Assembly (NCBI GenBank): GCA_000004985.1
Contig: GG738872.1
Direction: 5' to 3' (one strand)
Length of the DNA stretch: 64,000 bases
DNA from: Naegleria gruberi
Taxonomy: Eukaryota
Of this stretch, positions 2,227-19,596 are shown piece after piece. Under the pieces are notes generated by a model, which made no database searches, had not been told where the DNA came from, and worked only from the letters and a program-made list of their open reading frames with translations. Position numbers and translations under genes: made by a program. Positions within the stretch are counted from its first letter, which is position 1. Each line of letters opens with the position of its first letter.

Positions 2227-5200
2227 ATGAGTGGTACAAAACAAACGATGAGAAAAGTGAGTGATTCGAATTGGGAAGAAACACAAACACGTGCCTTCAC
2301 AAAGTGGGTCAATTCTCACCTGAAGAAACGTGAAGGTATTGCTCTTGTTGAGAATTTAATCAATGATGTTCAAACTGGTGTTCCAATTTTTGTTCTTTAT
2401 GAAATTATCAGTGGTGAAAAACTTGGTAAAATGTACAACAATCCTGAGAGTAAATTTCACAAGATTGCCAATTTGAATATAGTCATTGATCGTATCAATC
2501 AAGTTGTGGAAACAATGGGTATTAAATTGCAATTCTCAGCTGAACAAGTTTTCAATGGAGAAAAGAGACAAATCTTGGGTTTAATTTGGACTTTAATTTT
2601 GAGATTTCAAATTACAAAAACTTTGGAAATTGGTAAGTTTACAACTTGAGTGTGATATTAATATATCAATTTATTAGAACAACCTATTGTTAAAGTTGAT
2701 ACTCCTCCAGTGAAAGTGGAAAGTAATGAAGAACACAAGGAAGCAGTGCCAGTTGTCGAACCTGTGAAACAACAACATACAACAAAACCTCAAAAGAAGA
2801 CAAATGCTGGTGATAGTGCTAAAATGGAATTATTAAAATGGGTCCAAGAAAAATTGGTTCCATATGCTGGTGAGTTCCTTGTAAAGGATTTCACATCAAG
2901 TTGGCAAGATGGTAAGGCACTTGCTGCTTTGATTAGTACTTTGAAACCAAGAGCACTCAAATATAAAAAGATTGATTTTGTAAATACTACACCATTGGAA
3001 ATTAACAGAGAATCAATTAGAATTGCTGAAGAAGAATTGGATATTCCTGAAATTATTGATCCTGAGGACATTACTGATTCACCAGAAGAACTCTCATTAA
3101 TGACCTATATTTCCTATTTCAGAGATTATGACAGACTTCATCCAGAAGAACAAATTGAAGAAGAGGAAGTTCCTGAGGAACCAGTTGTGGAAATTATTGA
3201 AGATATTCGTCCAGAAATTGATCCATCAAAATGTATTGCTGAAGGTCCAGCTTTTGATGAATCAAATCCACCAATTCCAGGTCAACCAACTCATTTCACA
3301 ATTGTCACCTATGATGAAGAAGGGAACAAATATATTCCAAAGAGTACTGAAGATGATGAAAATCAAATTACTGTCAACTTATTCAGTCCATACGTTTCCG
3401 AAGAAATTCCAGAACCTGACATTAAGAATAATGGTGATGGTACCTATGATGTTTCATTTGTAGTTCCAGTTGGAGCTAAGGATTTGAAGGCACTTATTGT
3501 TGTCAATGGTGAAAGTATTCAAGGTACTCCTCACTCTGTTCCAAATGCTTCAATCTTTGATCCTGCCAAGAGTATTGTTGTTGGTGAAGGCGTTCAACCT
3601 TATAATTTATATGTTGACGAAATTACTGACTTTGTTGTGGAATGTAGAGATACTAATGGAGCTAACATTTTACAAAGTGTTCCAGATTTGCAATTTGATC
3701 TTGTCTTGAAGGATACTGATACTGGTAATGAGTACCCAGTTAAAGCTCAACAAGTTGACAATGCTGATGGTACATATACAATCAGCTATGTTCCTGATTG
3801 CCCATCTGGTTCTTATGAACTCTCTGTTTTGACAAACAAAGGAGAAAAAGTAGGAAATTCTCCATTTGATGTTACCTTCCAACAAAAAGTCATGCCAGCA
3901 CAATGCGTTGCCAAAGGTAATGGTATTTTGCCTTTCGGTTTAAAGACTGGTGTTGCCACTAGTTTCACAATTGAAATTAATGATAAGAATGGTAAAATTA
4001 TTCCATATGCCGATGAAGAAATTTTAGTTGATATTTTGAGTGGAGATGAACTTGTTGAACCAAGTGACTATTTCTTAACTGTTACCAATAATCAAAATGG
4101 TACCTATACTGTTAATTACAAACCAAAGAAAGCTGGAACTCACTTCATTTCTGTAAAGTGTAATGATGAAAATATTTCACAAAGTCCATTCAAGGTAGAA
4201 ATTTCAACTCTTCCTTCTGCTCCAAACTCTAAACTCAAACTTGTTTCAGTTAAATCATTGCCAAACTTGATTGAACAAGAAATTGACCTTAAGGCTCTCG
4301 ACTCATTTGGTGTTAAAACAGCAAAGAATTGCAAGTTGGTTGCCTTAGTTGAAGATGATGATGGAAATCTCATTCCAGCAACTATTGTTCCAGGTGAAGA
4401 TGATAAACTCAAGGTTGTCTTCAAGCCAACCAAAGCTGGACAAAAGTACAAGACCAAGATTCTCATGGATGGCGTTCCAGTTGGTGATAGTTTCACTGTT
4501 CAACACAAACCAATTTTATCTTGTCCTTTGACAAGAGTTTTCGGTCCTGGATTGAATGGAGCTGATTTATTCTCCAAGGATAGCGTTCCTGCCATGTTCA
4601 AGATCAAATCAATTGACAATAATCGTAATCCATACCTTCAATCAAACTTGCAACCAGTCAAGGCCTCAGCAAAGAAACTCAAGAGACTTGCCAAAAGTAT
4701 TTTCAAAGAACCAGATTATTTTACAGATTTGTTGAATCCACAATATGATTTACAATTAGATGATGAATCAGTAGTTGAATCTATTGACTTTTCTAAATCA
4801 GTTGATCTTGATGAAGTTAGACCAGCATTGGAAAGACACATCAAGGCAACACCTTTCAAGGTTATTGTTAAAAATGAAAACACTGGAGAAGATATTCCAG
4901 CTATTGTTTTCAATACAGCCCCAGCCGAATATACAGTCTTTTACAATCCAACTACGGCTGGCCCTATTTCTATTAGTGTTGTTGATAAGAAAGATCAACA
5001 TCCAGTTGCTGACAGCCCATACCAAGCTTTCGTTACTGAAGGAGTCAACCCAATGCTTTGCCAAGTTAAGGGTCCAGCATTGTTGAAGGCTTACAAGGGA
5101 AGACCAACCTATCTCACTATTCTTCCAAGAGATGCCAACAATTCACCAATTTCTGTTGGTGGACACGAATTTTATGCCAATCTTGCTGATAATAATGGAG

Positions 5201-5997
5201 TTTCATGTATTGTACCACTAACAATTGTAGATAATAATAATGGTACCTATGATGTTAAATTCACTCCTCAAGCTAAGGGAAAACATTTGATTTCAATCAA
5301 GCATGATGGCCAAGATCTCAAAGATTCACCATTTCCAATCTTTGTCAGAGATGATGAGTTTGCTCCATATGCCAAGAATTGTCAAGTATTTGACAATCCA
5401 TCCAAGATGAAGACTACCAAACCACGTCACTTCTTTGTACAAATGAAGGATAAGGATAATAATCCAATTCTCTCTGGTGGTGATCCTCTCAAGGCCACGC
5501 TCAAGACACCTGAAGGAAAGCTCGTTCAACACCTTGCAGTCATTGATCCAAACACTGGTAAATATAAGATTCCACTCAATCCTAAGGTTCCAGGTAAATA
5601 TATTGTAACTTGTTCACTGGGTGATGAAGAAGATGGAGGTGAAGTCATTTCAGGTTCTCCATTCCATCTCAATGTTACACCTGGCATTTCACCATTGAAG
5701 ACTGAAATTGGTGATTGGGAATTTGACATTCAAACAGCTCAAGACAATGAACCAGAGGACTTATTCATCAAGATTAAATCACCATCTGGAAAAGTCATCT
5801 CACCAACCATCATCAAGTGTCCAAGACCTGAAAATCATCAACCAAATGATGATGACGAATACTCGAAAGGAGACAGATTCAAACTTATTATCAGAACTAC
5901 AGAAGTTGAAAAGGGAGACTACTTGATCTATGCTAATATTTGTGGATACCCAGTAAAGGGATCACCATTCAAGCAAACTCTAGATGTTAGATGTTAA
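2227..5997 (+). CDS. Filamin/gelation-factor (ABP-120)-like actin crosslinker: tandem CH1+CH2 actin-binding domain followed by multiple filamin-type Ig repeats. 2 exons (2227..2632, 2678..5997), ~1241 aa.
   Basis: Exon 1 encodes CH1 (WEETQTRAFTKWVNSHL...LGLIWTLILRFQI). A 45-bp intron GTAAGTTT...TTATTAG is phase 1. Exon 2 encodes CH2 (KMELLKWVQEKL...ALAALISTLKP...LMTYISYF), then many ~95-aa repeats with the filamin motif pattern (DNGDGTY.V.F.P...G.H.V.V...G..I..SPF.V). Confidence 0.9.
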
Positions 5998-6266: not shown

Positions 6267-7328
6267 ATGGCACTATTGCAATCATTATCCACACCACCAG
6301 TATTGTTATCGCTTGGTGTCGTGGGTGCTTCTGCAGTTTATTGGGGTAGAAAATTCTTCCTTGGTACTTACTGCCCCGATCACTTAAAACAAGGAAACTT
6401 GAAAGGACAAGTTGTGCTAGTGACTGGAGCTAGTAAAGGAGGGATTGGATATGAAACTGTCAAGGCATTGTATTTAATGGGAGCTACTGTTGTGATGGCC
6501 GTCAGAGATGTTTCCAGAAGTGAAAAAGAAAAGAAAGAATTAGAAATTGAAAGTGAAAGTTCAACAGTCAAAGGTCAATTAATTGTAATGAAAGTTGAAC
6601 TAGATGATTTGGAATCTGTGAGAGAATTTTCAAAAGAATTCCTATCCAAATTCGATAGATTAGATATTCTAGTCAATAATGCAGGAATTGGTGGAATGAC
6701 AGGTATTTCCAAACAAGGAATTGAAATTGCATTTTCAGTGAACCATCTCTCTCACTTTTTAATAGTTCATTATTTGAGACAACTCATTATTGATACCAGT
6801 ATTAAATATTCAAAGGAATGCAAGATTATTAATGTGAGCAGTATGGCACATGCTTATGCCAAGAGTTTGAAGTTTACAAAAGATGAAATTTCAATGAGTG
6901 ATACTTCAGTGAATGCTTATGGACAATCAAAGCTTTGTAATGTTTTGTTTACAAAGTCATTGGCTAGACAGTTGGAAAATACTAAAATTGGATGCTATTG
7001 TCTTCATCCAGGTAAGTTATTTCATTTTCCATCATTATTCATTTTTGGAAATTATTGAACTGTAGGTGCTGTGAATACCAATGTGTTTAGACATTTACCA
7101 TATTATGTTTCACTTGTGTTGAATGGATTGAAATGGTACTTTTTCAAAACACCTGAAAGTGGAGCCCAAACTCAAATCTATCTTGCTTTGGAAAAGATGG
7201 AAAAACTCTCATCTGGATCTTATTATGATGATTGTAAGAAAGCAAATGAATATGAATTATCAAAGAGTGTTGAACTTCAAGATCAATTGTGGAATTTGAG
7301 TGAAGAATTGATCAAGGATTTTATTTAA
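6267..7328 (+). CDS. Short-chain dehydrogenase/reductase, retinol-dehydrogenase (RDH11/12/WWOX)-like. 2 exons (6267..7011, 7066..7328).
   Basis: N-terminal TM/signal-anchor. Rossmann motif VLVTGASKGGIGYETVKAL, the NNAG motif (VNNAGIGG) and active-site S...YGQSK. A 54-bp phase-1 intron (G|GTAAGTTATT...ctgtag) joins ...CLHPG to AVNTNVF, giving the HPG(A/V)VxT motif typical of this SDR subfamily. Confidence 0.85.
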
Positions 7329-7358: not shown

Positions 7359-8219
7359 TTAGATCTTTAATTTCTTATTTATTGAATTATTAAAAGCATC
7401 CAAGACATCAGTATCATTTCTCAATTCTTCATTCTCAATATGATCATATTCCACTTGATTTCTCCTCACTGCCTTGACAACAATTTCCTTATCATTTCTC
7501 AATGTTTTGTCGATGAATGTTAAAATTGGTGGTACAACACGATTTCTTACTTTGTACCTATCCATTACTTTCAATATCACTTCCTTATCTTTAAAATATC
7601 TTTCATAATATCGACTAAATGACTCATACTTGTAATAAATTAGAATTTGTTTTTCCATTTCTGGATTAGATCTAATACTGTTACATTGATTGTCAAAAGA
7701 TATGAATGATCTAGTAATTAATTGAATATTGAATTCCAAATCCATTTTCAATTCGGTTGGAATCATTTTATAATTCCAATCAGTTACACATTTAAGCATG
7801 AATGAAGTGTCATGTTTCAGCTCTTTACTGACATATCTCATGGCATATGAGTTTACTTTGATAGCTGCCATGACAACCTGTCTATCATTTCTAAGTTCCT
7901 GATTGGCATATTTCAATACATATCCATTTAGTTTACATGCCTTTAGAATAATTTCCTTCATATTTCTGTATTTCATTGGCAATCTTTTAAAATACCAAAT
8001 TTCTTCATTTTCAGCTTCCAATAAATAATAAACAATAGAATAATATGTTAAATATTCGGATGGAATTTGTTGAAATTTAACTTGTTTCGTTTTAATTAGT
8101 TTTATCAAATTTTGTGCTTCGTCAAGTTTATTTCGGAGCAAATTGGTTAGTAGTTGATTAGTATTACTACCATTGCTACTATCCATCCACAAATCAATTA
8201 GAATTACCTTTACACTCAT
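7359..8219 (-). CDS. DUF4116-repeat protein (tandem ~35-aa 'ELRNDKEIVxxAVxxNxxxxxY' repeats); function unknown
   Basis: True ATG (MSVKVILIDLW...) at 8219; the track start at 8318 is a TTG. Repeats visible include LRNDKEIVVKAVRRNQVEYDHIENEELRNDTDVLDAF and LRNDRQVVMAAIKVNSYAMRYVSKELKHDTSFMLKCV, matching the DUF4116 repeat pattern. Family assignment is from memory. Confidence 0.55.
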   Translation of the reverse strand: MSVKVILIDLWMDSSNGSNTNQLLTNLLRNKLDEAQNLIKLIKTKQVKFQQIPSEYLTYYSIVYYLLEAENEEIWYFKRLPMKYRNMKEIILKACKLNGYVLKYANQELRNDRQVVMAAIKVNSYAMRYVSKELKHDTSFMLKCVTDWNYKMIPTELKMDLEFNIQLITRSFISFDNQCNSIRSNPEMEKQILIYYKYESFSRYYERYFKDKEVILKVMDRYKVRNRVVPPILTFIDKTLRNDKEIVVKAVRRNQVEYDHIENEELRNDTDVLDAFNNSINKKLKI

Positions 8220-8681
8220 TTTTTTCTTTTTTAACTTTCGAATAATTTCCAATCCTATTAATTTCTTATCATTTCTCAATTCTTTAATTTTGAATTCAAG
8301 ATTGCATGTAAGTTTCAATTCATTTTTTGCTTTTCCAATTATTCACACTCAAGAAGTGTCAGATCTCAATTCTTTACTGACATATCAAAATTCCTATGAT
8401 GAAGGATTTACTAGTTGATATTATTCTAATCTTAAATACTAATCAATTAGTTCTCTATTTTCGATTAAATAACAAATGATTTCAGTTTGTCAATAGTCGG
8501 TTAAATATTGGAAGGAATTATTTGTTGGAATTTAACTTGATTTACTAGTTTCGTATACTTGTGCAATTCTTAAAGAATAATTAATTGTATAGTTTAGGTC
8601 ATTATACACAACTTCCTAATCAATTTGATCATCACATAAACTTTCGAATAAAAACTTTCTAATAATTTTAATAAATTTAAT

Positions 8682-9365: not shown

Positions 9366-10445
9366 TTATCCTTCTACTTTCCAAACTAAAATATCTTGAT
9401 TATCTTTACAAAGGGAATATACATATTTGTAAACATTTTCAATGGTTTCAATTTCGTATGGTTCTTTTAGTTTACTGTCATGATTGAACCACAATTCTCG
9501 TTCTTCATTGAGAATGATTTTACCAACTGCCCACCAATGTCCAGAAGCAGGTCTCCTCTCTACCTGTCTCTTTGATGCAAAGAATGGCAGACAACCTCCT
9601 CCACCCACCTGTACATAATATTGTTGATTGAAAAGAAGGCCAACCATCTTGGGATCTTTCAAATTCCACAAATCATTTGATAAATTATTCTCATTCAATT
9701 CACTTGGTTTTAAATTGTGTAATTTCATTTGTTTCTGTGTCAGTATACTTTCAACAACTTCATATGAATAATTTCCAAAACTTCCCAATAGTAGAATCTT
9801 CTTTTTATGATAATTTGACATGCTCTTCTTTTTAAACCATCGACTCAATCTACTTGATGAACTATCAAAACTTCCATAATATAATTCTCTCTCAGTATTG
9901 AATATACAATCAGCCACTTTATCAAACTCGTTAGTTTCCAACTTTTGTTGTAATAAATTATTAATTGAATGTTTGGCACATAATTGTCTCTTTTGTTTCT
10001 CGTGAATTAATTCAGTTTTACAGCTAGATCTCGGAGCAATACTTTGTAACAAGTAAGTAGTACTAACACAACAACTACTTCCCAAACCATATTGATTCAT
10101 CAATGGTTTATGCAATGGTAAATTAAATTCCTCCTTACTTTCATCATGACGTTCCGAAATGCTTTCATCATGATGATCATCCTTTCCATGATTAGGTTCC
10201 TCCACAATATTCAATGGTGATGATGATTTAAATTCATAACTAGCACCACCAACACTATCATTATTAGTAGTAGTACCATAGGAAGAAATACCATTCGTGC
10301 GATGAGATTGAACTGTTGATGATGAAGAAGATAAATAATGTTGAGGATCAATTAATTTATCAACCGATGATGCAACCACATTGGATTGTTCATCATCATC
10401 AGCATTGCTAAAATCACTTGTTATGGATGAACGTTGTTTAATCAT
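9366..10445 (-). CDS. Josephin-domain (MJD-type deubiquitinase)-like protein with a ~150-aa S/T/D-rich disordered N-terminus
   Basis: The central and C-terminal part aligns with the Josephin catalytic core: ...HEKQKRQLCAKHSINNLLQ (compare ataxin-3/JOSD 'QEGSLCAQHCLNNLLQ' with the catalytic Cys) ... WFNHDSKLKEPYEI. Single ORF. Confidence 0.5.
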   Translation of the reverse strand: MIKQRSSITSDFSNADDDEQSNVVASSVDKLIDPQHYLSSSSSTVQSHRTNGISSYGTTTNNDSVGGASYEFKSSSPLNIVEEPNHGKDDHHDESISERHDESKEEFNLPLHKPLMNQYGLGSSCCVSTTYLLQSIAPRSSCKTELIHEKQKRQLCAKHSINNLLQQKLETNEFDKVADCIFNTERELYYGSFDSSSSRLSRWFKKKSMSNYHKKKILLLGSFGNYSYEVVESILTQKQMKLHNLKPSELNENNLSNDLWNLKDPKMVGLLFNQQYYVQVGGGGCLPFFASKRQVERRPASGHWWAVGKIILNEERELWFNHDSKLKEPYEIETIENVYKYVYSLCKDNQDILVWKVEG

Positions 10446-10569: not shown

Positions 10570-13500
10570 TTAGATATTTTGAAGTGTTTGGAAGTATTTT
10601 ACATAGGATTGGTCAATTGGTGGACATTTGGTTGAGATGGATTGAGAATTGGAATTGTCATATTTGGGAGTTGGTGGGAATGAAGATTTAATGTAAGGAA
10701 GAAGTGGATAAATTGAAATTCTATCATTAATTGAATCAATCCATTCAGAATAATTCATTTTCCTCAAGTTTTCATTGAGAGATTCTTCCAAATATTGAAT
10801 GAATAATTTGAATGGAATTGGATTTGAATTATTGACAATATGATAAATTTGATGAGGTATTTCAGAGTGAGATATTTCAATAATTGATTTGCAGATATAA
10901 TCCACTGGAACTAAACTCACATTCTCATTGGTGGCTGGGTAGGATTTGAGTTGATGAATGGATTGAATGAACTTGGTAAACCAGTCGTTTGGATTAGCAA
11001 TACCTGATGAGGACCAACTAGAAAGACCTAATCTGTATATCTTGAACTTTTTAAATCCAAACTTTTCCTTGCAATTTTGTAATAATTTTTCAGCAACCCA
11101 TTTGGTTTGAGAGTAACCATCTGAGGATTTTACTCCACTTTGTAAAAACGTTTCTCCAATTGAGTCTTTTTCGTAGAGAGTTGGATTTTGTGATAAATTA
11201 TCTCCATAAACACTAATTGTAGAGGCATGATGTAAAAATACAGAGTGTTTGGCCGTGGAAATAAACTTCAAAAGTATTTTCATAGAATTAACATTTGAGC
11301 CCTTTAGAATTGAATAGCTTTGAGAAAATTCAACTCTAGCAGCAATATGATAAATTGATGTTACACTATTCAGTAATGTTTCATAACTATTTGAATCCAA
11401 TCCAAAGTTTTCTTTTGAAACGTCACCAGCCAATACAGTTATTTTGTTGGAATCAAATAAGAGTTTGTAAGTTTCAAATACTTTGGTTAGTCTATCAGTT
11501 GCCTCATTGTCAGATTCTGCTCTGACCAAACAAATTAATTTAGAGAATTTTCCTTGTTTGGCTAACTCTGCAACGAGATGACTTCCAACAAAACCTGTTC
11601 CACCAGTAATGAGGGCAATATGTTCCTTATCATTGGTTTCCTTCTTATCAGAGAATATCAAAGGTTCAGTGAAACGTAAATCCTCTTCAACTTCCTCCAA
11701 TAGTCCTTTCTGTTGTTGAGATATTAGATGATTGACAATTTTCTTTCCAGATCCGAGTGAAATCAGATTGCATACAGAGGACAATGGTTCGTGAATTAAC
11801 AAATTAATTGGAATATTCTCTGTAATTGAAAATACTCGCTGAATAGAAAAGAGTAATCGAACAGCTTTCTTTTCATTGTTAATGAATATTGATATCGCTT
11901 CAACTTACAATTGATGTTCCTCCCATTTCTGTAAAACTTTTGCTCATATCTAACTCTGTTACTTCCAGAATATTTTTGCACATGTTTACAAAATTTGTCT
12001 CAATATTCGCATCTGCGTAATCAGTGAGATCTGATGAGAAATCTGCATAGGCATTTTCTATGTTTTGAGTATGTTTCTTATAAATATTGAATCTGGAAAC
12101 TTTTCCACTAGGTGTTAGCATATTATTTTCAATAGTCCAATCGTCTGTGTCTATAATGATCTCCCTTGGAATTTCAAAATGTCTGAGTCCATGAATTTTT
12201 CCTAAATTCCTCATAGATTTCAAGATTTGTTTTGATTCCACATCTTGAGAAACTGTACGCACAATTGCAATGATATAATCTCTGCTACTGTCTCCATAAA
12301 TACAACAATTCTCGATGAGATCAATTTGTTCAAATAGACCTTCTAGCTGTGAAGGACTAACAAATTCAGAAATAGCCAACTTGAAAATGTTCTTTCTTCT
12401 GTCAATTATCTTGATTGAATTATTGGATGGATCTAATACCACTATGTCTCCAGTTTTATAATATCCATCAGAGGTGAAATTTTCATTAGATTCTTGTTCA
12501 TTCTTATAGTATCCTTGAATAGTATAACTTGTCTATTCATTTGTTATAAAAATCAATTAGAAAATAATTGTTACAAACCTTAACTGCTAATTCACCTCTT
12601 GGAAGAGGTAAATCAGTGCTGAAGAAATTCATTTCAGGAACATCAAGAAGTTTAAATTGAACATCTGAATGAATTATACCATTGGTTGCTATACCTCCAC
12701 ATTCAGAACAGCCAAATCCCTCAACTATTTAAATTTGAATAATAAAACTACATAAGTTCTACTTACTAGTCGCTAATCCAAGAGTGTCTTTCAAAAAGTT
12801 CATTAATTCTGTTGAAACATGGGCACCACCAATTCCAATAAGTGAAATTCTTTTTCCAAAAAGTCTTCTATACTTTTGAACAATTTCACTGTGAGGAATA
12901 TTTGACGATTTCAAATCCATCAAATATTCGTTATATAGCGAGTTAACTATGGAAGGAGCCAATACTAGTCCAGTAGGATTAACAATTGGCAAATCCTCAA
13001 ATAAATTGACTCCCCTTCTACAATATGCTAATCTACCTCCTCTCATAAGAGTTCCATAAACAAGCACTCTGTCAGCCCCAAGAGATTGTGGACTAAATGA
13101 AGCCTCAACTACCAATCTGTCATGAGAAATTTGCTTCTTGATATCAATAATCCAATGATTGTTCTCAATAATGCATCCTTTAGCTTTTGAAGTTGATCCA
13201 GAAGTGAATATAAGAGCACCACACTTTGAATCTGTGTTCATGTAGAGAAGTTCACTATTGGAATCATCTGATTTCTTGTTGATAACTTGTCCATTACCTG
13301 CAACAGCATATTTGGGAGAGTCCTCTTCAACAACAATTGGAGTATCATATCTAATTCCCATGAGTGTTTGAGCTTGTGAGTTTGATTTGTGCATTTCCTT
13401 TCCCTTCTTGATTAAGGACTCCAAAGTAATAATGTTTACATTAGATCCATTTTCTTTCACACTTGTTGAGTCCATAGAAACAAGAGTGAATTGTGTTCCC

Positions 13501-14798
13501 TTCTTTTCAAGTAAAACGTCTAAAAACTTTCTAATGAGTATTCCCTCACAAACAATTACTTGCATACCAGAAGTATCAATAATTGAGTTCAATTCTGGAG
13601 TGGATCTAGAAGGTTGAAGCCCAACTGTGGTAAATCCATTCCATGAACACATCAAATCAACAAGGGTATATTCAAATCTATTCTCATTTGTTGAAATACC
13701 AATCATTACTTCATTCTGATTTCCTGATAATAACCCTGAAAATCCAAGTGAACAATAGAACAATTCCTCCCTAACATCAGAGTAGGTTCTATACTTGAAT
13801 GTGTTTCCATGTCTAACTCCAACACAAGGTCTGTCATTATAGGTTCTAAACATGTTATTGACAAAAGTGTGAAGATTAGGAGAATTCAAAATATTCAATT
13901 TCATGAATACTACATCATTGTTCTCCAATATATATGGATAACCAAAGAAAGGATCCAATATTTTGATCTTTTCGTATAAATCTCTGTCATTTTCTTCTAA
14001 TTTGATTGTGTCAGTATTAATATCAAACTCTATTTGCTTTTTGAAACAAACTTGTTCAATTGTTTTCATCCAACCATAACAATGTTCACACTTGACAGAA
14101 TTCTTATCATTTGAAGAGATGCACCGATATCTAGGATTTCCCTCTCCAAGACCACCTGATTGAATGACCCAATCGCAAACTCCACATCGATCCTCCCATA
14201 AATTATCTCCAAATCGATCAGTAATTTTCCCAGAGTTGAATTCAACAGTACCTCCTCCGTTTCCCGAATCAAATGAACTACTATAAGTAACTTGCCATGG
14301 TAAATTAATATTCGCACTCTTCAATTCATTCGATAATTCATCCAATTCTCTAACAAACTTTTCATTCAATTTTGCAGATTCAATCATTTTCGGATTTTCC
14401 TCCAAATCATTGATCTTTCCCTGATTTTCAATAATAATAGTCTTGAACTCTCTCAATTCCCTCAAAAACTCATCAATATTCAAACAAGAACTATTATCAT
14501 CATTTTGATCATCATTTTGTAATTTCTTATTAATTTGTTCAATCTTTTCCATTCTCAATTTTACAAACTCTTCCTGAACAATCTTAAAATCAGCCCTCAA
14601 TTTCTCACTCTCCACCACATAGGTCCTTCTCACTAAATTACCCAACCGCAACAATTCAACAATTCTCTCAAAATAATTTTCACTCCTCTCCGGATTTAAA
14701 GATTTTAAATTCTCACAGTCGGCATAACAAGACTTTAAAAAGGGAAATTCTAATAGGATAGCAGTGTCATGATTTTTGATTTCAAGTTCTTGAGACAT
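10570..14798 (-). CDS. NRPS-like carboxylate-reductase-type enzyme: novel N-terminal domain + adenylation (AMP-binding) + PCP + thioester-reductase (R). 4 exons (14798..12767, 12724..12579, 12532..11909, 11817..10570), ~1349 aa.
   Basis: Adenylation core motif IFTSGSTSKAKG. Exon 2 carries ...EGFGCSECGGIATNG... and exon 3 carries YKTGDIV...IIDRRKN (A8 motif-like). PCP motif ...FTEMGGTS|I spans the exon 3/4 junction. R-domain Rossmann motif ITGGTGFVGSHLV plus ...YGDNLS.. follow. Introns of 42, 46 and 91 bp (GTAAGT..atag, GTTTGT..aatag, GTAAGT..cagag) are all frame-preserving and merge three track ORFs. The first ~300 aa contain a coiled coil and a Cys cluster (CGVC...C-x10-CEHC). Confidence 0.8.
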
Positions 14799-15351: not shown

Positions 15352-15912
15352 ATGCAACATAAATTTCTCCTGGCCGTTGTCCTGCTGGTTTTGTTTGCCA
15401 CAACCATCACTCTGGCTCAAAACATGGGATGTTCATCGGATAGAGATTGTCTTTCTAACTACAAGTGTGTCTCAATTTCAAAACCAAATAGTGAAAAGTA
15501 TAATGCTTGTCTTCCTAACTCTGATGACAGATCAACTATTGTCAGTGCAATGAATGCCAAGGCTTCAAGAATTTCCTCAGCAAAGAATAGTTTGAATGGA
15601 ATTGTATTGGCTGATGATGAACAAGTTGCTTTATCTGCCAAATCGGATATTACAGCAACAACAACGGCAACAACTACCACTGCTGCTCCAACAACTACAA
15701 CATCTTCAATTACATTGGTAGATAAGAATTCTGCTATCAGTAGTGATGTTGGTGGTGGTTCGGCCAATACTGAAAATGAAGAACAAGAGGAAAATACTGA
15801 ACAAGAGGAAGAAGAAAATGATGAAGAGGAAAATGAACAAGAGGAAGAAGAGGAGGAAGAGGATGAAGATGAAGAAGAAGAAGAGGATGATGAAGAGGAT
15901 GAGGAAGAATAG
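15352..15912 (+). CDS. Secreted low-complexity protein: signal peptide, small Cys-rich module, Thr-rich mucin-like linker, poly-acidic (E/D) C-terminal tail
   Basis: MQHKFLLAVVLLVLFATTITLAQN, then CSSDRDCLSNYKCVS...CLPN, then TATTTATTTTAAPTTTTSS, then EEQEENTEQEEEENDEEENEQEEEEEEEDEDEEEEEDDEEDEEE. The antisense poly-Ser ORF 15459..15935 is a compositional artefact of the GAA/GAG tract. Confidence 0.5.
   Translation: MQHKFLLAVVLLVLFATTITLAQNMGCSSDRDCLSNYKCVSISKPNSEKYNACLPNSDDRSTIVSAMNAKASRISSAKNSLNGIVLADDEQVALSAKSDITATTTATTTTAAPTTTTSSITLVDKNSAISSDVGGGSANTENEEQEENTEQEEEENDEEENEQEEEEEEEDEDEEEEEDDEEDEEE
15775..15912. repeat. Imperfect (GAA/GAG/GAT)n trinucleotide tract encoding a poly-E/D tail
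   Basis: ...gaagaacaagaggaaaatactgaacaagaggaagaagaaaatgatgaagaggaaaatgaacaagaggaagaagaggaggaagaggatgaagatgaagaagaagaagaggatgatgaagaggatgaggaagaa. Confidence 0.8.
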
Positions 15913-16039
15913 ATTTTCAGTTTTGAATAAATCATGGAATTGGAAATACTCTACTTCCAACTTGGTGTTTTATTACAAAAATGATTCTCTTAATTTACAA
16001 AATATATTTCCTAGATTTTCCTAGATTAGAGATTTAACC

Positions 16040-17953
16040 TTACAGATATTCATCGTCGTGTTCCTTAGACTTGTCGAGAAATTTCTTAGTCAGTGAAGAT
16101 AAATCCTTCAACTTTTCAGAGAGTGAATTGGGACTGCTCACAACTGGTTCTCTTGGTGCCAATCGTGTTGTGTTTGTTGATACTGTTGGTGGTTTTGGAG
16201 AGCTTTTAGGTGATACTCTAATGTTGGGTGTGGTTAAATTATTGCCAAAGCTCATATATTCGGTGGGTATTATTGAACTTGCCTTAGTATCAACTGTTGG
16301 GTTAAGGGAATTCAAAGGTCGGTCCGATCTTCTCCTATTTTCTAACATTTCTTCTTGGTGTCGTATTGTTAGGAGGAGAGATCCTCGTTCCTTCTTTAAT
16401 TGTTTGATTTCTTCTTCCTTTACAGAGATTTTCATCTCATAGTAATCAAACTTTTCCCTGTCCTCTTTTTGTTTACTCTCCTGCTCTGCTTGTATCAGTC
16501 TCTCGTAATGTTTGAGCTTGTACACGAGTTTGGTGTTTTCACTCTTTGCTTCGTTTAATTCAATTTCAAGTCTCGTTAATTCTTCGTCTTTTAACCTCAC
16601 TGCATGCAAAACAATATCCTTCTTTTCCTTATCATTTTGGTGCTGGTACTCGTTAAGTTTTGATTTGAGTGTTTTGACAACACCCAATTCAGTTGCTATT
16701 GTTTGTTCTGCTCTAGAAAGAGAAAGAGTTAATTGTTCAACTTCAGAACACTTGAGATTATACTCGTTTCTAACTATTTCAACCTCCTTATTAAGACTGT
16801 CGAATTTTCTTTGTATTTCATCCATATGATTTTTCTCTGTATAGGTTAATATTACAGAAAAAGAAAATGAATCAACTTACTTTGCTCCTCTAGCAATGTT
16901 CTATCTTCCTTCAGAATTTTCAAATCTTGTTCGAATTTTCTGCTCATAAATTCCTTTTCTCTATTTAATCGTTCAATCTCTTTTACGTACTTGGTAATAT
17001 CCAATTTTTTGAGTTGTTCTTCTAGATAATTGTTCGATGCCTTAAGATCCTTCTCTTTATGCCTAGCTACCGATAATTCATATTTTAATTGTTTGATTTC
17101 TTTCTGATATTCCAATTCCTTCTTTCTGAATTCTTTGGCCTTATTTTCATCCTCAATATCGGCCATCTTTGATTGAATTAATAATGCATACACTTTCTGT
17201 CTCCACTTGTTTAGAATTGAAACTTGAAGTTGATGTTTTCCTTTTTTAAGAAAATCATCCTTCCCGTCTTGCACCTTGTTGAATTCGTTAATTTCATTAT
17301 TTTGAATTTCAATGATTTCCTCCAGAGCTGCAATTCTTACAGATAAAAATTCAACTGATTGTTCATTTCCTTTCGAGTAGTGATGTTCCTCCTCTTCAAA
17401 GTGATACCTATTTGGCTCTTCATAATAACCAAAGTTTGATCCCTGTTGTTGTCTCTTCTCGTCAAATTGATGTCTCATGTTTGCTGTATGATCTGAATAA
17501 TCAAACTTTTCATTTTGATTTCTATTATTCATAATTGATGAAGGATTAAAAGTTGGATTTTGGTTCATTGCTGATGAAGGTGGAAGTGTTGAAGGATTAA
17601 ACTCTCTTTGTTTTATCTTTTCTCTTGTCTGTTCAATATCTCGAAGCTTTTGTTTTTCATGTTCCACAGAAAATCCCAAATCTCTAATGTAGGAACTAGC
17701 ATCATAAACTCTAGGTGATTGTTCTTCATATTTGAAACCTTGTGTTTCCTCCCTTAAATAAGAAGATTGATGATATAAATTATTATTTGGAGAGTTTGAA
17801 TTTCCTCCAGCTGAATTCAAGAAGGATTGTTGCCCTGCTCCATTCATTCCGAATTCATGATGATAGGATGAAGGTGATTGCCGCGAATGATTGTTTGCTG
17901 ATAATAGAGCACTTGAATTTTGTGGCGAGTATGAGGATCCAAATGCTTTCATT
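16040..17953 (-). CDS. Long coiled-coil protein (N-terminal Q/N/S-rich region, C-terminal heptad-rich region). 2 exons joined by a 44-bp phase-1 intron (16837..16880).
   Basis: Track ORFs 16852..18006 and 16040..16825 are one gene: donor ...CAATCG|GTAAGTTGATTC on the minus strand and acceptor ...CTATACAG|AGAAAAATCATATGGATG restore ...EEQS-K-KNHMDEIQRKF. The likely true ATG is MKAFGSS at 17953; the track start 18006 is TTG. Confidence 0.6.
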
Positions 17954-18158
17954 TTCTTTTTGGTGTAAAATTTGGGCGGGAAAAATTCAAAGCAAATTGT
18001 AGTCAAGGTGGAGGTAAACTTTTTCTAATACCAAATCAGATCAATTAATTGTTAATGCATTAATTATTAGCATTGAATAGACACTCTATTGAAAGTAACA
18101 TGTTTATAATAACACACTAGTGGTGTATGGAAAGGATTTATTTAAAATGTACAATTTT

Positions 18159-18954: not shown

Positions 18955-19596
18955 ATGAGTAATAATTTATTATTCAATGAAAATCATGATGTAAAGGCAG
19001 ATTTATCAAATAATTCAAGAAGTATCAAATTTAATGATTCACCTCTAGTATTGTATCATCATAATGACCATTCATCAAATTCTTCTTCTCCTTTAAACAA
19101 CGAACATACATCTCCACAGTGGGAAGAATTTATTGTTCATCTATCCCGATGGAATGTCATTAAAAAGCACTCGGGTTTTCTCATCCTTCTCCTTCTCTTG
19201 CATTATCTAGTATTGGGATGGAGTGGAGTGCAACACTTTAATTCATCCCCTCGATTCATTCTCATTGGATTATGTTGGCTCTATTGGTTCTACTCACTCC
19301 TCTCGAGTACCATCTCGGAGAGTATTGTAGGAATGAAGGGAAAAGGTGTTCAATTGGAAAAGACGACATTCCTCGGCTATAAAACTCATCAACTCTTCAT
19401 TCCAATTGAAAATATCAAACATGTTGTCATAGCAGAGGGCTTTCATATTGATTGTGTGATTTACTATTTGGCCATTATTTTGAAACAAGCCCACAAGAAA
19501 AAGATGGTTATTGTTCCATTCGAAATGTTCAATCCACGATTAAACCTTTTACGAAAGGTCTATCCAAAATTGAAAAGAGTGTTATTTGATGAATAA
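18955..19596 (+). CDS. GPI-GlcNAc transferase complex subunit PIG-H (GPI15)-like membrane protein
   Basis: Two TM helices, then a PIG-H domain: ...GVQLEKTTFLGYKTHQLFIPIENIKHVVIAEGFHIDCVIYYLAIILK...PFEMFNPRLNLLRKVY (compare human ...IYMQKVIYYLCILLK...PVFQSAKPRLDCLIEVY). Confidence 0.65.
   Translation: MSNNLLFNENHDVKADLSNNSRSIKFNDSPLVLYHHNDHSSNSSSPLNNEHTSPQWEEFIVHLSRWNVIKKHSGFLILLLLLHYLVLGWSGVQHFNSSPRFILIGLCWLYWFYSLLSSTISESIVGMKGKGVQLEKTTFLGYKTHQLFIPIENIKHVVIAEGFHIDCVIYYLAIILKQAHKKKMVIVPFEMFNPRLNLLRKVYPKLKRVLFDE

What the first reader, a model, noticed from the sequence alone, without database searches (positions are those of the whole stretch)
10570..14798. Intron-containing NRPS-like A-T-R (adenylation-PCP-reductase) gene with an unrecognised N-terminal Cys4/coiled-coil domain
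A-T-R enzymes (carboxylic-acid reductases, Lys2-type alpha-aminoadipate reductases, reductase-terminated NRPS modules) are normally bacterial or fungal. This one carries three GT..AG micro-introns of host type (42, 46 and 91 bp, phases checked), so it is a genuine nuclear gene and not contamination. The PCP phosphopantetheine site (MGGTS|I) is split across an exon junction. The ~300-aa N-terminal extension contains a coiled coil and a C-x2-C...C-x10-C-x2-C cluster, and it resembles nothing I know in A-T-R enzymes. It could be a substrate-delivery, regulatory or localisation module. The enzyme would reduce an activated carboxylate to an aldehyde or alcohol; the substrate is unknown. This could be an undescribed specialised-metabolism system.
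Basis: partly seen in the sequence, partly recalled or inferred. Interest (0 to 1): 0.65.

Follow-up and report, generated by a model that had tools for sequence, protein, structure and literature searches.

The report
Naegleria carboxylic-acid reductase with ZZ-finger head
This is a real, intron-containing gene of the amoeba Naegleria gruberi that encodes an uncharacterised carboxylic-acid-reductase-type enzyme (acid to aldehyde), whose unexplained N-terminal part turns out to be a helical stalk plus a ZZ-type zinc finger that many protists attach to their fatty-acid-activating enzymes.

Summary
A minus-strand gene (14798 to 10570) has four exons and encodes a 1366-aa protein. That protein is 100% identical to the public Naegleria gruberi model XP_002676473.1 (NAEGRDRAFT_68436, "predicted protein"). 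Introns 1 and 2 are 42 and 46 nt as stated. Intron 3 is 40 nt, not 91. The 91-nt version deletes carrier-domain helix 2 and abolishes the PP-binding match.

The enzyme is CAR-like rather than NRPS- or Lys2-like. Bacterial carboxylic acid reductases are its best solved relatives (E 3e-83, one alignment spanning A, T and R). All adenylation, phosphopantetheine and reductase motifs are intact.

This module is not special to A-T-R enzymes. It sits in front of ACSL-like adenylation domains in Willaertia, kinetoplastids, Chromera, Anaeramoeba, Tritrichomonas and metagenomic protists, with or without T-R.

I found no biosynthetic cluster and no literature on the gene. My verdict is a new variant of a known kind, of moderate interest. 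Substrate and the role of the ZZ module remain inferred.

The parts
10570..14798 (-). Whole gene (ATG 14798 to stop TAA 10570-10572). It equals N. gruberi NAEGRDRAFT_68436 / XP_002676473.1, 1366 aa.
   Evidence: 100% identity, 1366/1366
12767..14798 (-). Exon 1 (aa 1-677 plus the first base of codon 678)
12725..12766 (-). Intron 1: 42 nt, GTAAGT..TAG, phase 1, between LAT and IEGFG. It is specific to N. gruberi; N. lovaniensis and the third species lack it.
12579..12724 (-). Exon 2 (aa 678-726)
12533..12578 (-). Intron 2: 46 nt, GTTTGT..TAG, phase 0, after GELAVK. The position is shared with N. lovaniensis and the third Naegleria species.
11909..12532 (-). Exon 3 (aa 727-934), ending ...MGGTSI
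11869..11908 (-). Intron 3: 40 nt, GTAAGT..AAAAG, phase 0, after I934. The position is shared by all three Naegleria species.
10570..11868 (-). Exon 4 (aa 935-1366 plus the stop codon)
14304..14798 (-). N-terminal helical region (aa 1-165). The model shows long antiparallel helices 36-95, 108-134 and 139-161.
   Evidence: AlphaFold model, mean pLDDT 86.4, pTM 0.77. Only generic helical-bundle matches. 35% identical to N. lovaniensis.
14244..14303 (-). Conserved 'PWQ..Y' segment (aa 166-185) that precedes the finger in the whole family
   Evidence: P167 and W168 are nearly invariant in alignments A1 and A2
14049..14243 (-). ZZ-type zinc-finger-like domain (aa 186-250). It contains the conserved GGKITD..G.N.WED hairpin and Zn-site-1 ligands C205, C208, C237, C240. 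C226 is a remnant of site 2, whose partners have become S229, F284 and Y287.
12026..13928 (-). Adenylation domain, CAR/ACSL type (aa 291-895; the span includes introns 1 and 2). Motifs: TSGSTSKAKG 532, EGFGCSE 679, YKTGD 751, IDRRK 769, PSGK 867.
11746..12025 (-). Carrier (T/PCP) domain (aa 896-975; the span includes intron 3). Phosphopantetheine Ser933 is at 11914..11912.
10573..11625 (-). Thioester reductase (R) domain (aa 1016-1366). Motifs: TGGTGFVG 1022, YSQTK 1186.
   Evidence: NAD_binding_4 E 2e-51. TIGR01746 209 bits..

Best explanation
The gene encodes a CAR-type carboxylic-acid reductase of Naegleria gruberi. I infer the following mechanism from the family. The ACSL/CAR-type adenylation domain activates a carboxylic acid with ATP, most likely a medium- or long-chain fatty acid. 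The acyl group is transferred to the phosphopantetheine arm on Ser933 of the carrier domain. The C-terminal SDR-type thioester reductase then uses NAD(P)H to release it as an aldehyde, possibly reduced further to the alcohol.

The first ~290 residues form one module: a long antiparallel helical hairpin followed by a ZZ-type zinc finger that retains one zinc site in Naegleria. This module is an ancient partner of this class of adenylation domain in many protists. It most likely mediates a protein-protein contact (partner, localisation or regulation) rather than catalysis.

Shown here: the gene structure, domain order, intact catalytic motifs, CAR as the closest solved relative, the ZZ-like fold, and the taxonomic spread of the module. 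Inferred: the substrate class, the product, zinc binding, and the role of the N-terminal module.
For: Gene model: it is identical to the public N. gruberi protein. Intron positions 2 and 3 and the synteny (PIG-H ... HCR-like ... gene ... Josephin ... filamin) are conserved in N. lovaniensis and a third species.

Enzyme class:
- Pfam finds AMP-binding, PP-binding and NAD_binding_4.
- The best NCBIfam model is carboxylic acid reductase, at 382 bits covering A through R.
- The A domain alone scores 272 bits on the CAR model against 76 bits for the next family.
- The best solved structures are the CARs 5mso, 5msc and 5msp (E 3e-83 to 5e-73), each aligned in one piece from residue 523 to 1322.
- Motifs A3, A7, A8 and A10, GGTS, TGxxGxxG and YxxxK are all present.

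N-terminal module:
- The AlphaFold models are confident (pLDDT 86.4 and 83.6).
- Homologues carry the complete ZZ ligand pattern C-x2-C..RYxC-x2-C..C-x2-C..PH-x2-H.
- The finger region is the most conserved part of the N-terminus between Naegleria species: 69% identity against 53% overall.
- The module sits in front of AMP-binding domains in 25 representative proteins from distant protists. A metagenomic clade (P0020) also carries T-R.
Against: The score on the CAR equivalog model is far below its cutoff (382 against 1300 bits), and identity to bacterial CARs is only about 30%. Orthology to characterised CARs is therefore not established and substrate range cannot be transferred.

The PP-binding match is marginal: 18 bits in the whole protein and 22.6 bits in isolation, against a cutoff of 20.8.

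No phosphopantetheinyl transferase, expression data or biochemical data were available. The fatty-acid assignment rests only on A-domain family resemblance and on source annotations of homologues as 'long-chain acyl-CoA synthetase'.
Confidence: 0.65

Rival explanations
1. This is an NRPS-like or Lys2-type enzyme of specialised or amino-acid metabolism. The A domain would activate an amino acid or similar polar acid, for example alpha-aminoadipate, and the gene would mark an undescribed natural-product pathway.
For: The A-T-R order is shared with Lys2 and reductase-terminated NRPS modules. TIGR03443 (Lys2) and MxcG models hit at E about 1e-47. NRPS R domains are among the PDB hits.
Against: Those hits cover only T-R (residues about 861-1327) and lie far below their cutoffs (161 against 1030 bits). 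For the A domain alone, the amino-acid-adenylation model TIGR01733 is not among the families listed at E <= 1e-10, whereas CAR scores 272 bits. There is no condensation domain. Neighbouring genes are filamin, an SDR, DUF4116, Josephin and PIG-H, which is ordinary housekeeping context conserved across species.
Confidence: 0.08
2. The gene is a recent horizontal acquisition of a bacterial CAR/FadD9 gene, later given introns and a host-derived N-terminus.
For: CARs are mainly actinobacterial and fungal. The closest solved structures are bacterial CARs. A published survey proposes HGT for related fatty-acyl-AMP ligases in Naegleria (PMC12820801), although that paper does not name this gene.
Against: Identity to bacterial proteins is only 23-30%. 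The same N-terminal module plus the same type of A domain occurs in Heterolobosea, kinetoplastids, chromerids, Anaeramoeba and parabasalids. A-only members also match the CAR A-domain model best, at 202-207 bits. A second, very distant lineage (P0020, 24% identical over N-module, A, T and R) has the full architecture. These points argue for an old eukaryotic family rather than a recent transfer.
Confidence: 0.1
3. The T-R part is vestigial or non-reductive. The protein would then act as an ordinary acyl-CoA synthetase, like its A-only relatives, or release its product by a non-redox route.
For: Most family members lack T-R. The PP-binding score is marginal.
Against: The phosphopantetheine Ser, the Rossmann motif TGGTGFVG and the catalytic YSQTK are intact. 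T and R are 55-57% identical between N. gruberi and N. lovaniensis, as conserved as the A core. NAD_binding_4 scores E 2e-51 over the full model length.
Confidence: 0.07
4. The N-terminal module is only a structural or dimerisation extension (a coiled coil), and the Cys cluster is a chance or purely structural feature with no ZZ-like ligand-binding role.
For: The helical part gives only generic bundle matches. Pfam ZZ is not significant. Several homologues have lost the cysteines.
Confidence: 0.1

Closest known systems
Bacterial carboxylic acid reductases (CAR, EC 1.2.1.30; Nocardia iowensis, Mycobacterium marinum, Segniliparus rugosus; PDB 5msc/5mso/5msp; mycobacterial FadD9 type; NCBIfam NF041592)
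   Same: The A-T-R order is the same, and a single collinear alignment covers A core, A sub, T and R (query 523-1322 against CAR 244-1106, E 3e-83). The A domain is of the ACSL-like type. The Ppant serine, the NADPH motif and the YxxxK catalytic pair are all present.
   Different: Identity is only about 30%, and the score is 382 bits against a 1300-bit cutoff. The first ~230 residues of the A domain are much more divergent. The gene is eukaryotic, nuclear and contains introns. It carries a ~290-aa helical + ZZ-like module that the CAR alignments do not cover: the matched CAR chains are 1174-1188 aa long, and the match begins only at query residue ~523 and CAR residue ~244.
Protist 'long-chain acyl-CoA synthetase' proteins with the same N-terminal module (e.g. 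Anaeramoeba flamelloides KAJ6232560.1, Papus ankaliazontas EP00760_P008318, Tritrichomonas musculus KAK8854377.1, Chromera velia Cvel_24842, Willaertia magna KAL9645163.1)
   Same: They share the helical + PWQ + GGKITD..WE + ZZ-like finger module, directly followed by the same type of AMP-binding domain.
   Different: Most end after the A domain, with no T-R, so they presumably make acyl-CoA. Many keep both zinc sites of the finger, whereas Naegleria keeps one. All are uncharacterised.
ZZ-type zinc fingers (Pfam PF00569; CBP/p300, p62, Nbr1, Ada2, HERC2, KCMF1, PRT1, BIG, dystrophin)
   Different: No significant sequence match to Pfam ZZ. There is a longer loop (IQxGAxGxG) between the first two ligand pairs. 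In complete family members the two His ligands lie 25-35 residues downstream. The domain is fused to a metabolic enzyme rather than to ubiquitin or chromatin machinery. The known role of ZZ domains in reading protein N-termini comes from my own knowledge of the family and was not tested here.
Fungal Lys2 alpha-aminoadipate reductase and fungal CARs / A-T-R(-R) enzymes (e.g. NcCAR, PMC10168641; glycine betaine reductase ATRR, bioRxiv 10.1101/559534)
   Same: These are eukaryotic A-T-R enzymes that reduce a tethered acyl thioester with NADPH.
   Different: The Lys2 model matches only T-R and lies far below its cutoff. These fungal enzymes have NRPS-type A domains (my own knowledge, not tested here). 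I am not aware of a helical/ZZ head in them, and this too was not tested here.

Membership tests
Carboxylic acid reductase (CAR, NF041592) | Domain order: adenylation, then phosphopantetheine carrier, then thioester reductase, in one polypeptide | tested here: met
   Pfam AMP-binding 320-735, PP-binding 910-950, NAD_binding_4 1021-1263. Collinear alignment to CAR structures.
Carboxylic acid reductase (CAR, NF041592) | A domain of the CAR/ACSL type with intact ATP and adenylate motifs | tested here: met
   The A domain alone scores 272 bits on the CAR model against 76 bits for the next family. Motifs TSGSTSKAKG, YKTGD, IDRRK and PSGK are present.
Carboxylic acid reductase (CAR, NF041592) | Conserved Ser for phosphopantetheinylation, plus R-domain TGxxGxxG and YxxxK | tested here: met
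   GGTS with Ser933; TGGTGFVG at 1022; YSQTK at 1186.
Carboxylic acid reductase (CAR, NF041592) | Score at or above the curated equivalog cutoff (1300 bits) | tested here: not met
   382.3 bits. It is therefore CAR-like in architecture and mechanism, but not a member of the curated bacterial equivalog.
Carboxylic acid reductase (CAR, NF041592) | ATP- and NADPH-dependent reduction of free carboxylic acids to aldehydes; requires a PPTase | not testable with these tools
   Needs enzyme assays. No PPTase gene could be searched for outside the 64-kb window.
Lys2-type alpha-aminoadipate reductase (TIGR03443) | Full-length match above the cutoff (1030 bits), including an amino-acid-type A domain | tested here: not met
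   161 bits, and the match covers residues 863-1327 only (T-R). TIGR01733 is not among the families listed for the A domain at E <= 1e-10.
Non-ribosomal peptide synthetase module | Condensation domain and/or NRPS-type amino-acid adenylation domain | tested here: not met
   No Condensation (PF00668) hit at E <= 1. The A domain is closest to CAR/fatty-acid ligases.
ZZ-type zinc finger (PF00569) | Cross-brace fold of about 50 residues | tested here: met
ZZ-type zinc finger (PF00569) | Eight zinc ligands: C-x2-C, C-x2-C, C-x2-C, H-x(2-4)-H | tested here: inconclusive
   The full set is present in homologues P0009, P0010, P0012, P0013, P0020, P0024 and P0029. N. gruberi keeps C205, C208, C237 and C240 (site 1) and only C226 of site 2 (S229, F284, Y287 replace the others).
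ZZ-type zinc finger (PF00569) | Significant match to the Pfam model | tested here: not met
   No hit for the N. gruberi sequence. The best values among 23 family members are E 0.067 (ZZ_ADA2) and 1.1 (ZZ). The profile against PDB sequences gives only E 0.3-2 for ZZ chains.
Long-chain acyl-CoA synthetase (ACSL, K01897) | ACSL-type AMP-binding domain with the fatty-acyl-CoA-synthetase signature around TGD...IIDRKK | tested here: met
   The sequence DGYYKTGDIVVLDPSNNSIKIIDRRKNIFKL is read directly. Homologues are annotated K01897/ACSL by their sources. The signature definition comes from my own knowledge.
Long-chain acyl-CoA synthetase (ACSL, K01897) | Stand-alone enzyme that transfers the acyl group to free CoA | tested here: not met
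   Here the A domain is fused to its own carrier and reductase domains, which predicts transfer to the tethered phosphopantetheine instead.

The most novel reading that the evidence does not exclude
The helical-hairpin + ZZ-finger head may define an undescribed, ancient protist family of acyl-activating enzymes. In this reading the ZZ finger, which in other proteins reads protein N-termini, docks the enzyme onto a specific protein or organelle contact site, or even presents a protein or peptide amine as the acyl acceptor. In Naegleria and one other lineage the family would have recruited T-R domains to become a targeted fatty-aldehyde or fatty-alcohol generator, for example for ether-lipid, wax or signalling-lipid synthesis.
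Probability: 0.12. Interest if true: 0.7.

Novelty: new variant of a known kind. Interest (0 to 1): 0.42.

Why it matters
CAR-type enzymes are valued biocatalysts and have been described mainly from actinobacteria and fungi. A clearly eukaryotic, protist-encoded one broadens the known range and may have a different substrate scope.

More generally, the work gives an identity to an unannotated ~290-aa region: a helical hairpin plus a ZZ-like finger. It also shows that this region is a conserved head of ACSL-like enzymes across at least five distant protist lineages, including relatives of pathogens (Naegleria, kinetoplastids, parabasalids). I found no description of a ZZ finger attached to a lipid-activating enzyme. 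If it directs localisation or partner choice, it could point to how these cells channel activated fatty acids.

The gene itself is already in public databases as a 'predicted protein', so the finding is a functional annotation and a domain discovery, not a new gene.

Tried and rejected
1. An 89-nt alternative is out of frame. A 70-nt alternative is in frame but shortens carrier helix 2 and disagrees with the orthologues.
2. The Lys2 and NRPS assignments are rejected on A-domain type and model scores.
3. Profile searches of the word-indexed protein database with alignments A1 and A2 returned only the near-identical fragment P0007. They added nothing.
4. A metagenome scan with a heterolobosean alignment (A3) gave one partial locus at a contig end (L006).
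6. The AlphaFold database library (afdb50) was not available.
7. Literature searches found nothing on this gene or on a ZZ-ACSL fusion. I searched the locus tag and accessions, Naegleria + CAR, Naegleria + NRPS terms, fatty alcohol/wax terms, and ZZ + ACSL. A FAAL survey mentions FAALs in two Naegleria species without naming this gene. The Giardia LACS4 paper gives no domain information.
8. I considered predicting aldehyde versus alcohol release from a single R-domain residue (the CAR 'Asp' switch recalled from memory; N. gruberi has YRLG where CARs have FRCD). I did not use it. I could not verify the residue mapping, and published data show that CAR R domains over-reduce in a substrate-dependent way anyway (PMC10168641).


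Full report
**1. What is in the sequence**

The region 10570-14798 carries a minus-strand gene that is broken into long ORFs. I joined the ORFs at GT..AG sites that preserve the frame. This gives four exons and a 1366-aa product ending in TAA at 10570-10572.

- Intron 1 is 42 nt (12766..12725, phase 1, between ...GLAT and IEGFG...).
- Intron 2 is 46 nt (12578..12533, phase 0, after ...GELAVK).

Introns 1 and 2 are 17-19% GC, against about 33% GC for the window, and carry stop codons in every frame.

The third intron does not match. A 91-nt intron (11908..11818) is in frame, but it removes 17 residues (KAVRLLFSIQRVFSITE). A 40-nt intron (11908..11869, GTAAGT...AAAAG, phase 0) keeps them.

Four independent results favour the 40-nt version:
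- The resulting protein is 100% identical, 1366 of 1366 residues, to the public Naegleria gruberi protein XP_002676473.1 / EFC43729.1 / NAEGRDRAFT_68436 / UniProt D2VHT2, named only 'predicted protein'.
- The annotated N. lovaniensis orthologue has an intron at the same codon boundary, GGSSM|KAVKLLF.
- A third Naegleria species, assembled from public reads, has the same junction.
- The isolated carrier region scores 22.6 bits for Pfam PP-binding (cutoff 20.8) with the 40-nt intron. With the 91-nt intron it gives no hit at all.

The phosphopantetheine serine (Ser933, codon 11914..11912) is therefore not split. The exon ends one residue later.

**2. It is a genuine Naegleria nuclear gene**

The window is N. 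gruberi. N. lovaniensis has a 1381-aa orthologue that is 53% identical over 99% of the length. A third species has the same gene.

Gene order is conserved in all three: PIG-H, an HCR-like coiled-coil gene, this gene, Josephin, then filamin.

Two intron positions are shared by the three species. N. gruberi intron 1 and one N. lovaniensis intron (IIDRR|KNIFKL) are each specific to one species. Contamination is excluded.

**3. What kind of enzyme**

Pfam finds AMP-binding (320-735), a weak AMP-binding_C_3, PP-binding (910-950) and NAD_binding_4 (1021-1263, E 2e-51).

Among NCBIfam models the best by far is carboxylic acid reductase: NF041592, 382 bits, with profile positions 212-1092 aligned to residues 504-1322. 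That score is well below the 1300-bit equivalog cutoff. The thioester-reductase domain model TIGR01746 scores 209 bits against a cutoff of 213.

The Lys2 and MxcG models match only the T-R part.

When the A domain is scanned alone, the CAR model gives 272 bits and the next family, a long-chain fatty-acid CoA ligase, gives 76 bits.

In the PDB the three best hits are the CARs of Mycobacterium marinum, Nocardia iowensis and Segniliparus rugosus (E 3e-83 to 5e-73). Each aligns as one collinear stretch through A core, A sub, T and R.

All catalytic landmarks are present:
- TSGSTSKAKG (A3)
- EGFGCSE
- YKTGD (A7)
- IDRRK (A8)
- PSGK (A10 lysine)
- GGTS (carrier serine)
- TGGTGFVG (Rossmann motif)
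- YSQTK (catalytic Tyr/Lys)

The protein is therefore CAR-like in architecture and, by inference, in mechanism. It is not an NRPS module or a Lys2 homologue. The substrate is not established. The A-domain family and the ACSL annotations of its relatives make a fatty acid the most likely class. CAR-type R domains can also carry reduction on to the alcohol in a substrate-dependent way (PMC10168641), so I leave the product as aldehyde, possibly alcohol.

**4. The N-terminal 290 residues**

No Pfam family matches. An exhaustive phmmer search of 1.84 billion representative proteins with residues 1-290 found 25 proteins at E <= 1e-3.

Apart from Naegleria fragments, the sources name the following:
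- Willaertia magna
- the kinetoplastids Papus ankaliazontas and Apiculatamorpha spiralis
- Chromera velia
- Anaeramoeba flamelloides
- Tritrichomonas musculus
- several metagenomic protists

Where the proteins are long enough, the module is followed by an AMP-binding domain, usually with nothing after it. Sources call these proteins 'long-chain acyl-CoA synthetase' or 'hypothetical'.

One metagenomic clade (P0020, 1484 aa, intronless contigs L004/L005) has the full arrangement: N-module, A, T and R. It aligns with the N. gruberi protein over residues 65-1263 at 24% identity.

The A-only members also match the CAR A-domain model best, at 202-207 bits.

The alignment shows three features:
- a variable helical part;
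- a conserved PWQ..Y segment;
- a conserved V.F.GG[KR]ITD..G.N[IL]WE hairpin leading into the pattern C-x2-C ... IQ.GA.G.G..RY.C-x2-C ... C-x2-C ... PH-x2-H.

That ligand order, and the R-Y-x-C signature, are those of a ZZ-type zinc finger.

N. gruberi retains the four ligands of the first site (C205, C208, C237, C240). Of the second site it keeps only C226; the other positions are S229, F284 and Y287. Some kinetoplastid-like members have lost most cysteines.

**5. Structure**

AlphaFold2 with the 23-sequence alignment gives a confident model of residues 1-330 (mean pLDDT 86.4, pTM 0.77). It shows long antiparallel helices (36-95, 108-134, 139-161), then a small beta-rich domain with a helix at 238-251, then the first elements of the A domain.

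Fold searches with the whole model return only generic helical bundles.

- HERC2 ZZ, RSC8 ZZ, KCMF1 ZZ, MIB1 ZZ, CBP ZZ and dystrophin ZZ
- further down, p300, ZZZ3 and PRT1 ZZ domains
- after those, RING, U-box and B-box fingers

A profile of the alignment searched against PDB sequences gives only weak hits (E 0.2-2), but 8 of the 10 are ZZ domains.

Together these results support a ZZ-like cross-brace finger. Sequence-level membership of Pfam ZZ is not met.

Between N. gruberi and N. lovaniensis, the finger region is 69% identical, the helical part 35% and the whole protein 53%. The finger is therefore under strong constraint even though one zinc site has gone.

**6. Most likely mechanism**

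Shown here: an intact A-T-R enzyme of CAR type, preceded by a helical hairpin and a ZZ-like finger that is an old companion of this A-domain type in protists.

Inferred:
- ATP-dependent adenylation of a carboxylic acid, probably a fatty acid;
- thioesterification to the phosphopantetheine on Ser933;
- NAD(P)H-dependent reductive release as aldehyde, possibly alcohol;
- the N-terminal module acting as a protein-interaction, localisation or regulatory device.

ZZ fingers in other proteins are interaction modules, often for protein N-termini. That statement rests on my own knowledge and was not tested here.

**7. Context**

The neighbours are filamin (2710-5997 +), a short-chain dehydrogenase (6267-7058 +), a DUF4116 protein (7359-8318 -), Josephin (9366-10445 -), an acidic low-complexity ORF (15352-15912 +), an HCR-like coiled-coil ORF (16852-18006 -) and PIG-H (18955-19596 +). 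This is not a biosynthetic cluster. There is no second copy of the gene in the window.

**8. Novelty and verdict**

The gene is already deposited, but as an uncharacterised 'predicted protein'. No paper in the searchable library mentions it, a Naegleria CAR, or a ZZ-ACSL fusion.

The enzyme belongs to a known kind (CAR-type A-T-R). Two things are new: the identification of its N-terminal head as a helical + ZZ-like module, and the recognition that this head defines a protist-wide family of ACSL-like enzymes, two lineages of which carry T-R.

I rate it a new variant of a known kind and of moderate interest (0.42).
- the 'specialised metabolism system' reading has no support;
- the N-terminal domain is not unique to A-T-R enzymes;
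- the function of the module remains conjecture.

Noticed in passing
window 12725-12766; L001 (N. lovaniensis) gene coordinates 2404-2460: Intron turnover between Naegleria species. N. gruberi has a private phase-1 intron at LAT|IEGFG. N. lovaniensis has a private intron at IIDRR|KNIFKL. The other two positions are shared by three species.
   Followed up: partly
window 6267-7058 (+): A short-chain dehydrogenase/reductase ORF (adh_short, E 2e-26) lies two genes downstream of the reductase gene. The corresponding position in N. lovaniensis and the third species holds a DUF4419 gene instead. It is probably unrelated, but an SDR could in principle act on an aldehyde product.
   Followed up: no
window 15352-15935 (both strands): A 186-aa ORF has a signal-peptide-like start, a Thr/Ala-rich middle and a long Glu/Asp tail. 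It is overlapped on the opposite strand by a poly-Ser ORF. This is a low-complexity region directly upstream of the gene's start.
   Followed up: no
P0025 / P0049 (Tritrichomonas musculus KAK8854377.1 cluster): Here the helical + ZZ-like module lies C-terminal to one AMP-binding domain (residues about 625-806) and is followed by the start of another ACSL-like domain. This suggests tandem genes that are fused or merged in the model.
   Followed up: no
alignment A2, profile positions 8-40, against PDB 8wql chain CD: The conserved PWQ..Y...GG.IT.A.G.N segment gives a weak match (E 0.22) to a stretch of photosystem II CP43 (PWQVRRAAEYM...GGIITEAQGFN). This is most likely chance.
   Followed up: no
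L004/L005 (JGI metagenome contigs carrying P0020/P0035): An intronless 1484-aa gene with the full N-module-A-T-R architecture sits next to PIG-L and Methyltransf_16 genes. The organism is unidentified. The intronless gene and its neighbours suggest a protist with few introns.
   Followed up: partly
P0007 (Logan assembly, 208 aa): A fragment 97% identical to the N. gruberi N-terminus ends abruptly after ...LWEDR. It probably comes from another N. gruberi strain or a sibling species in public read data.
   Followed up: no
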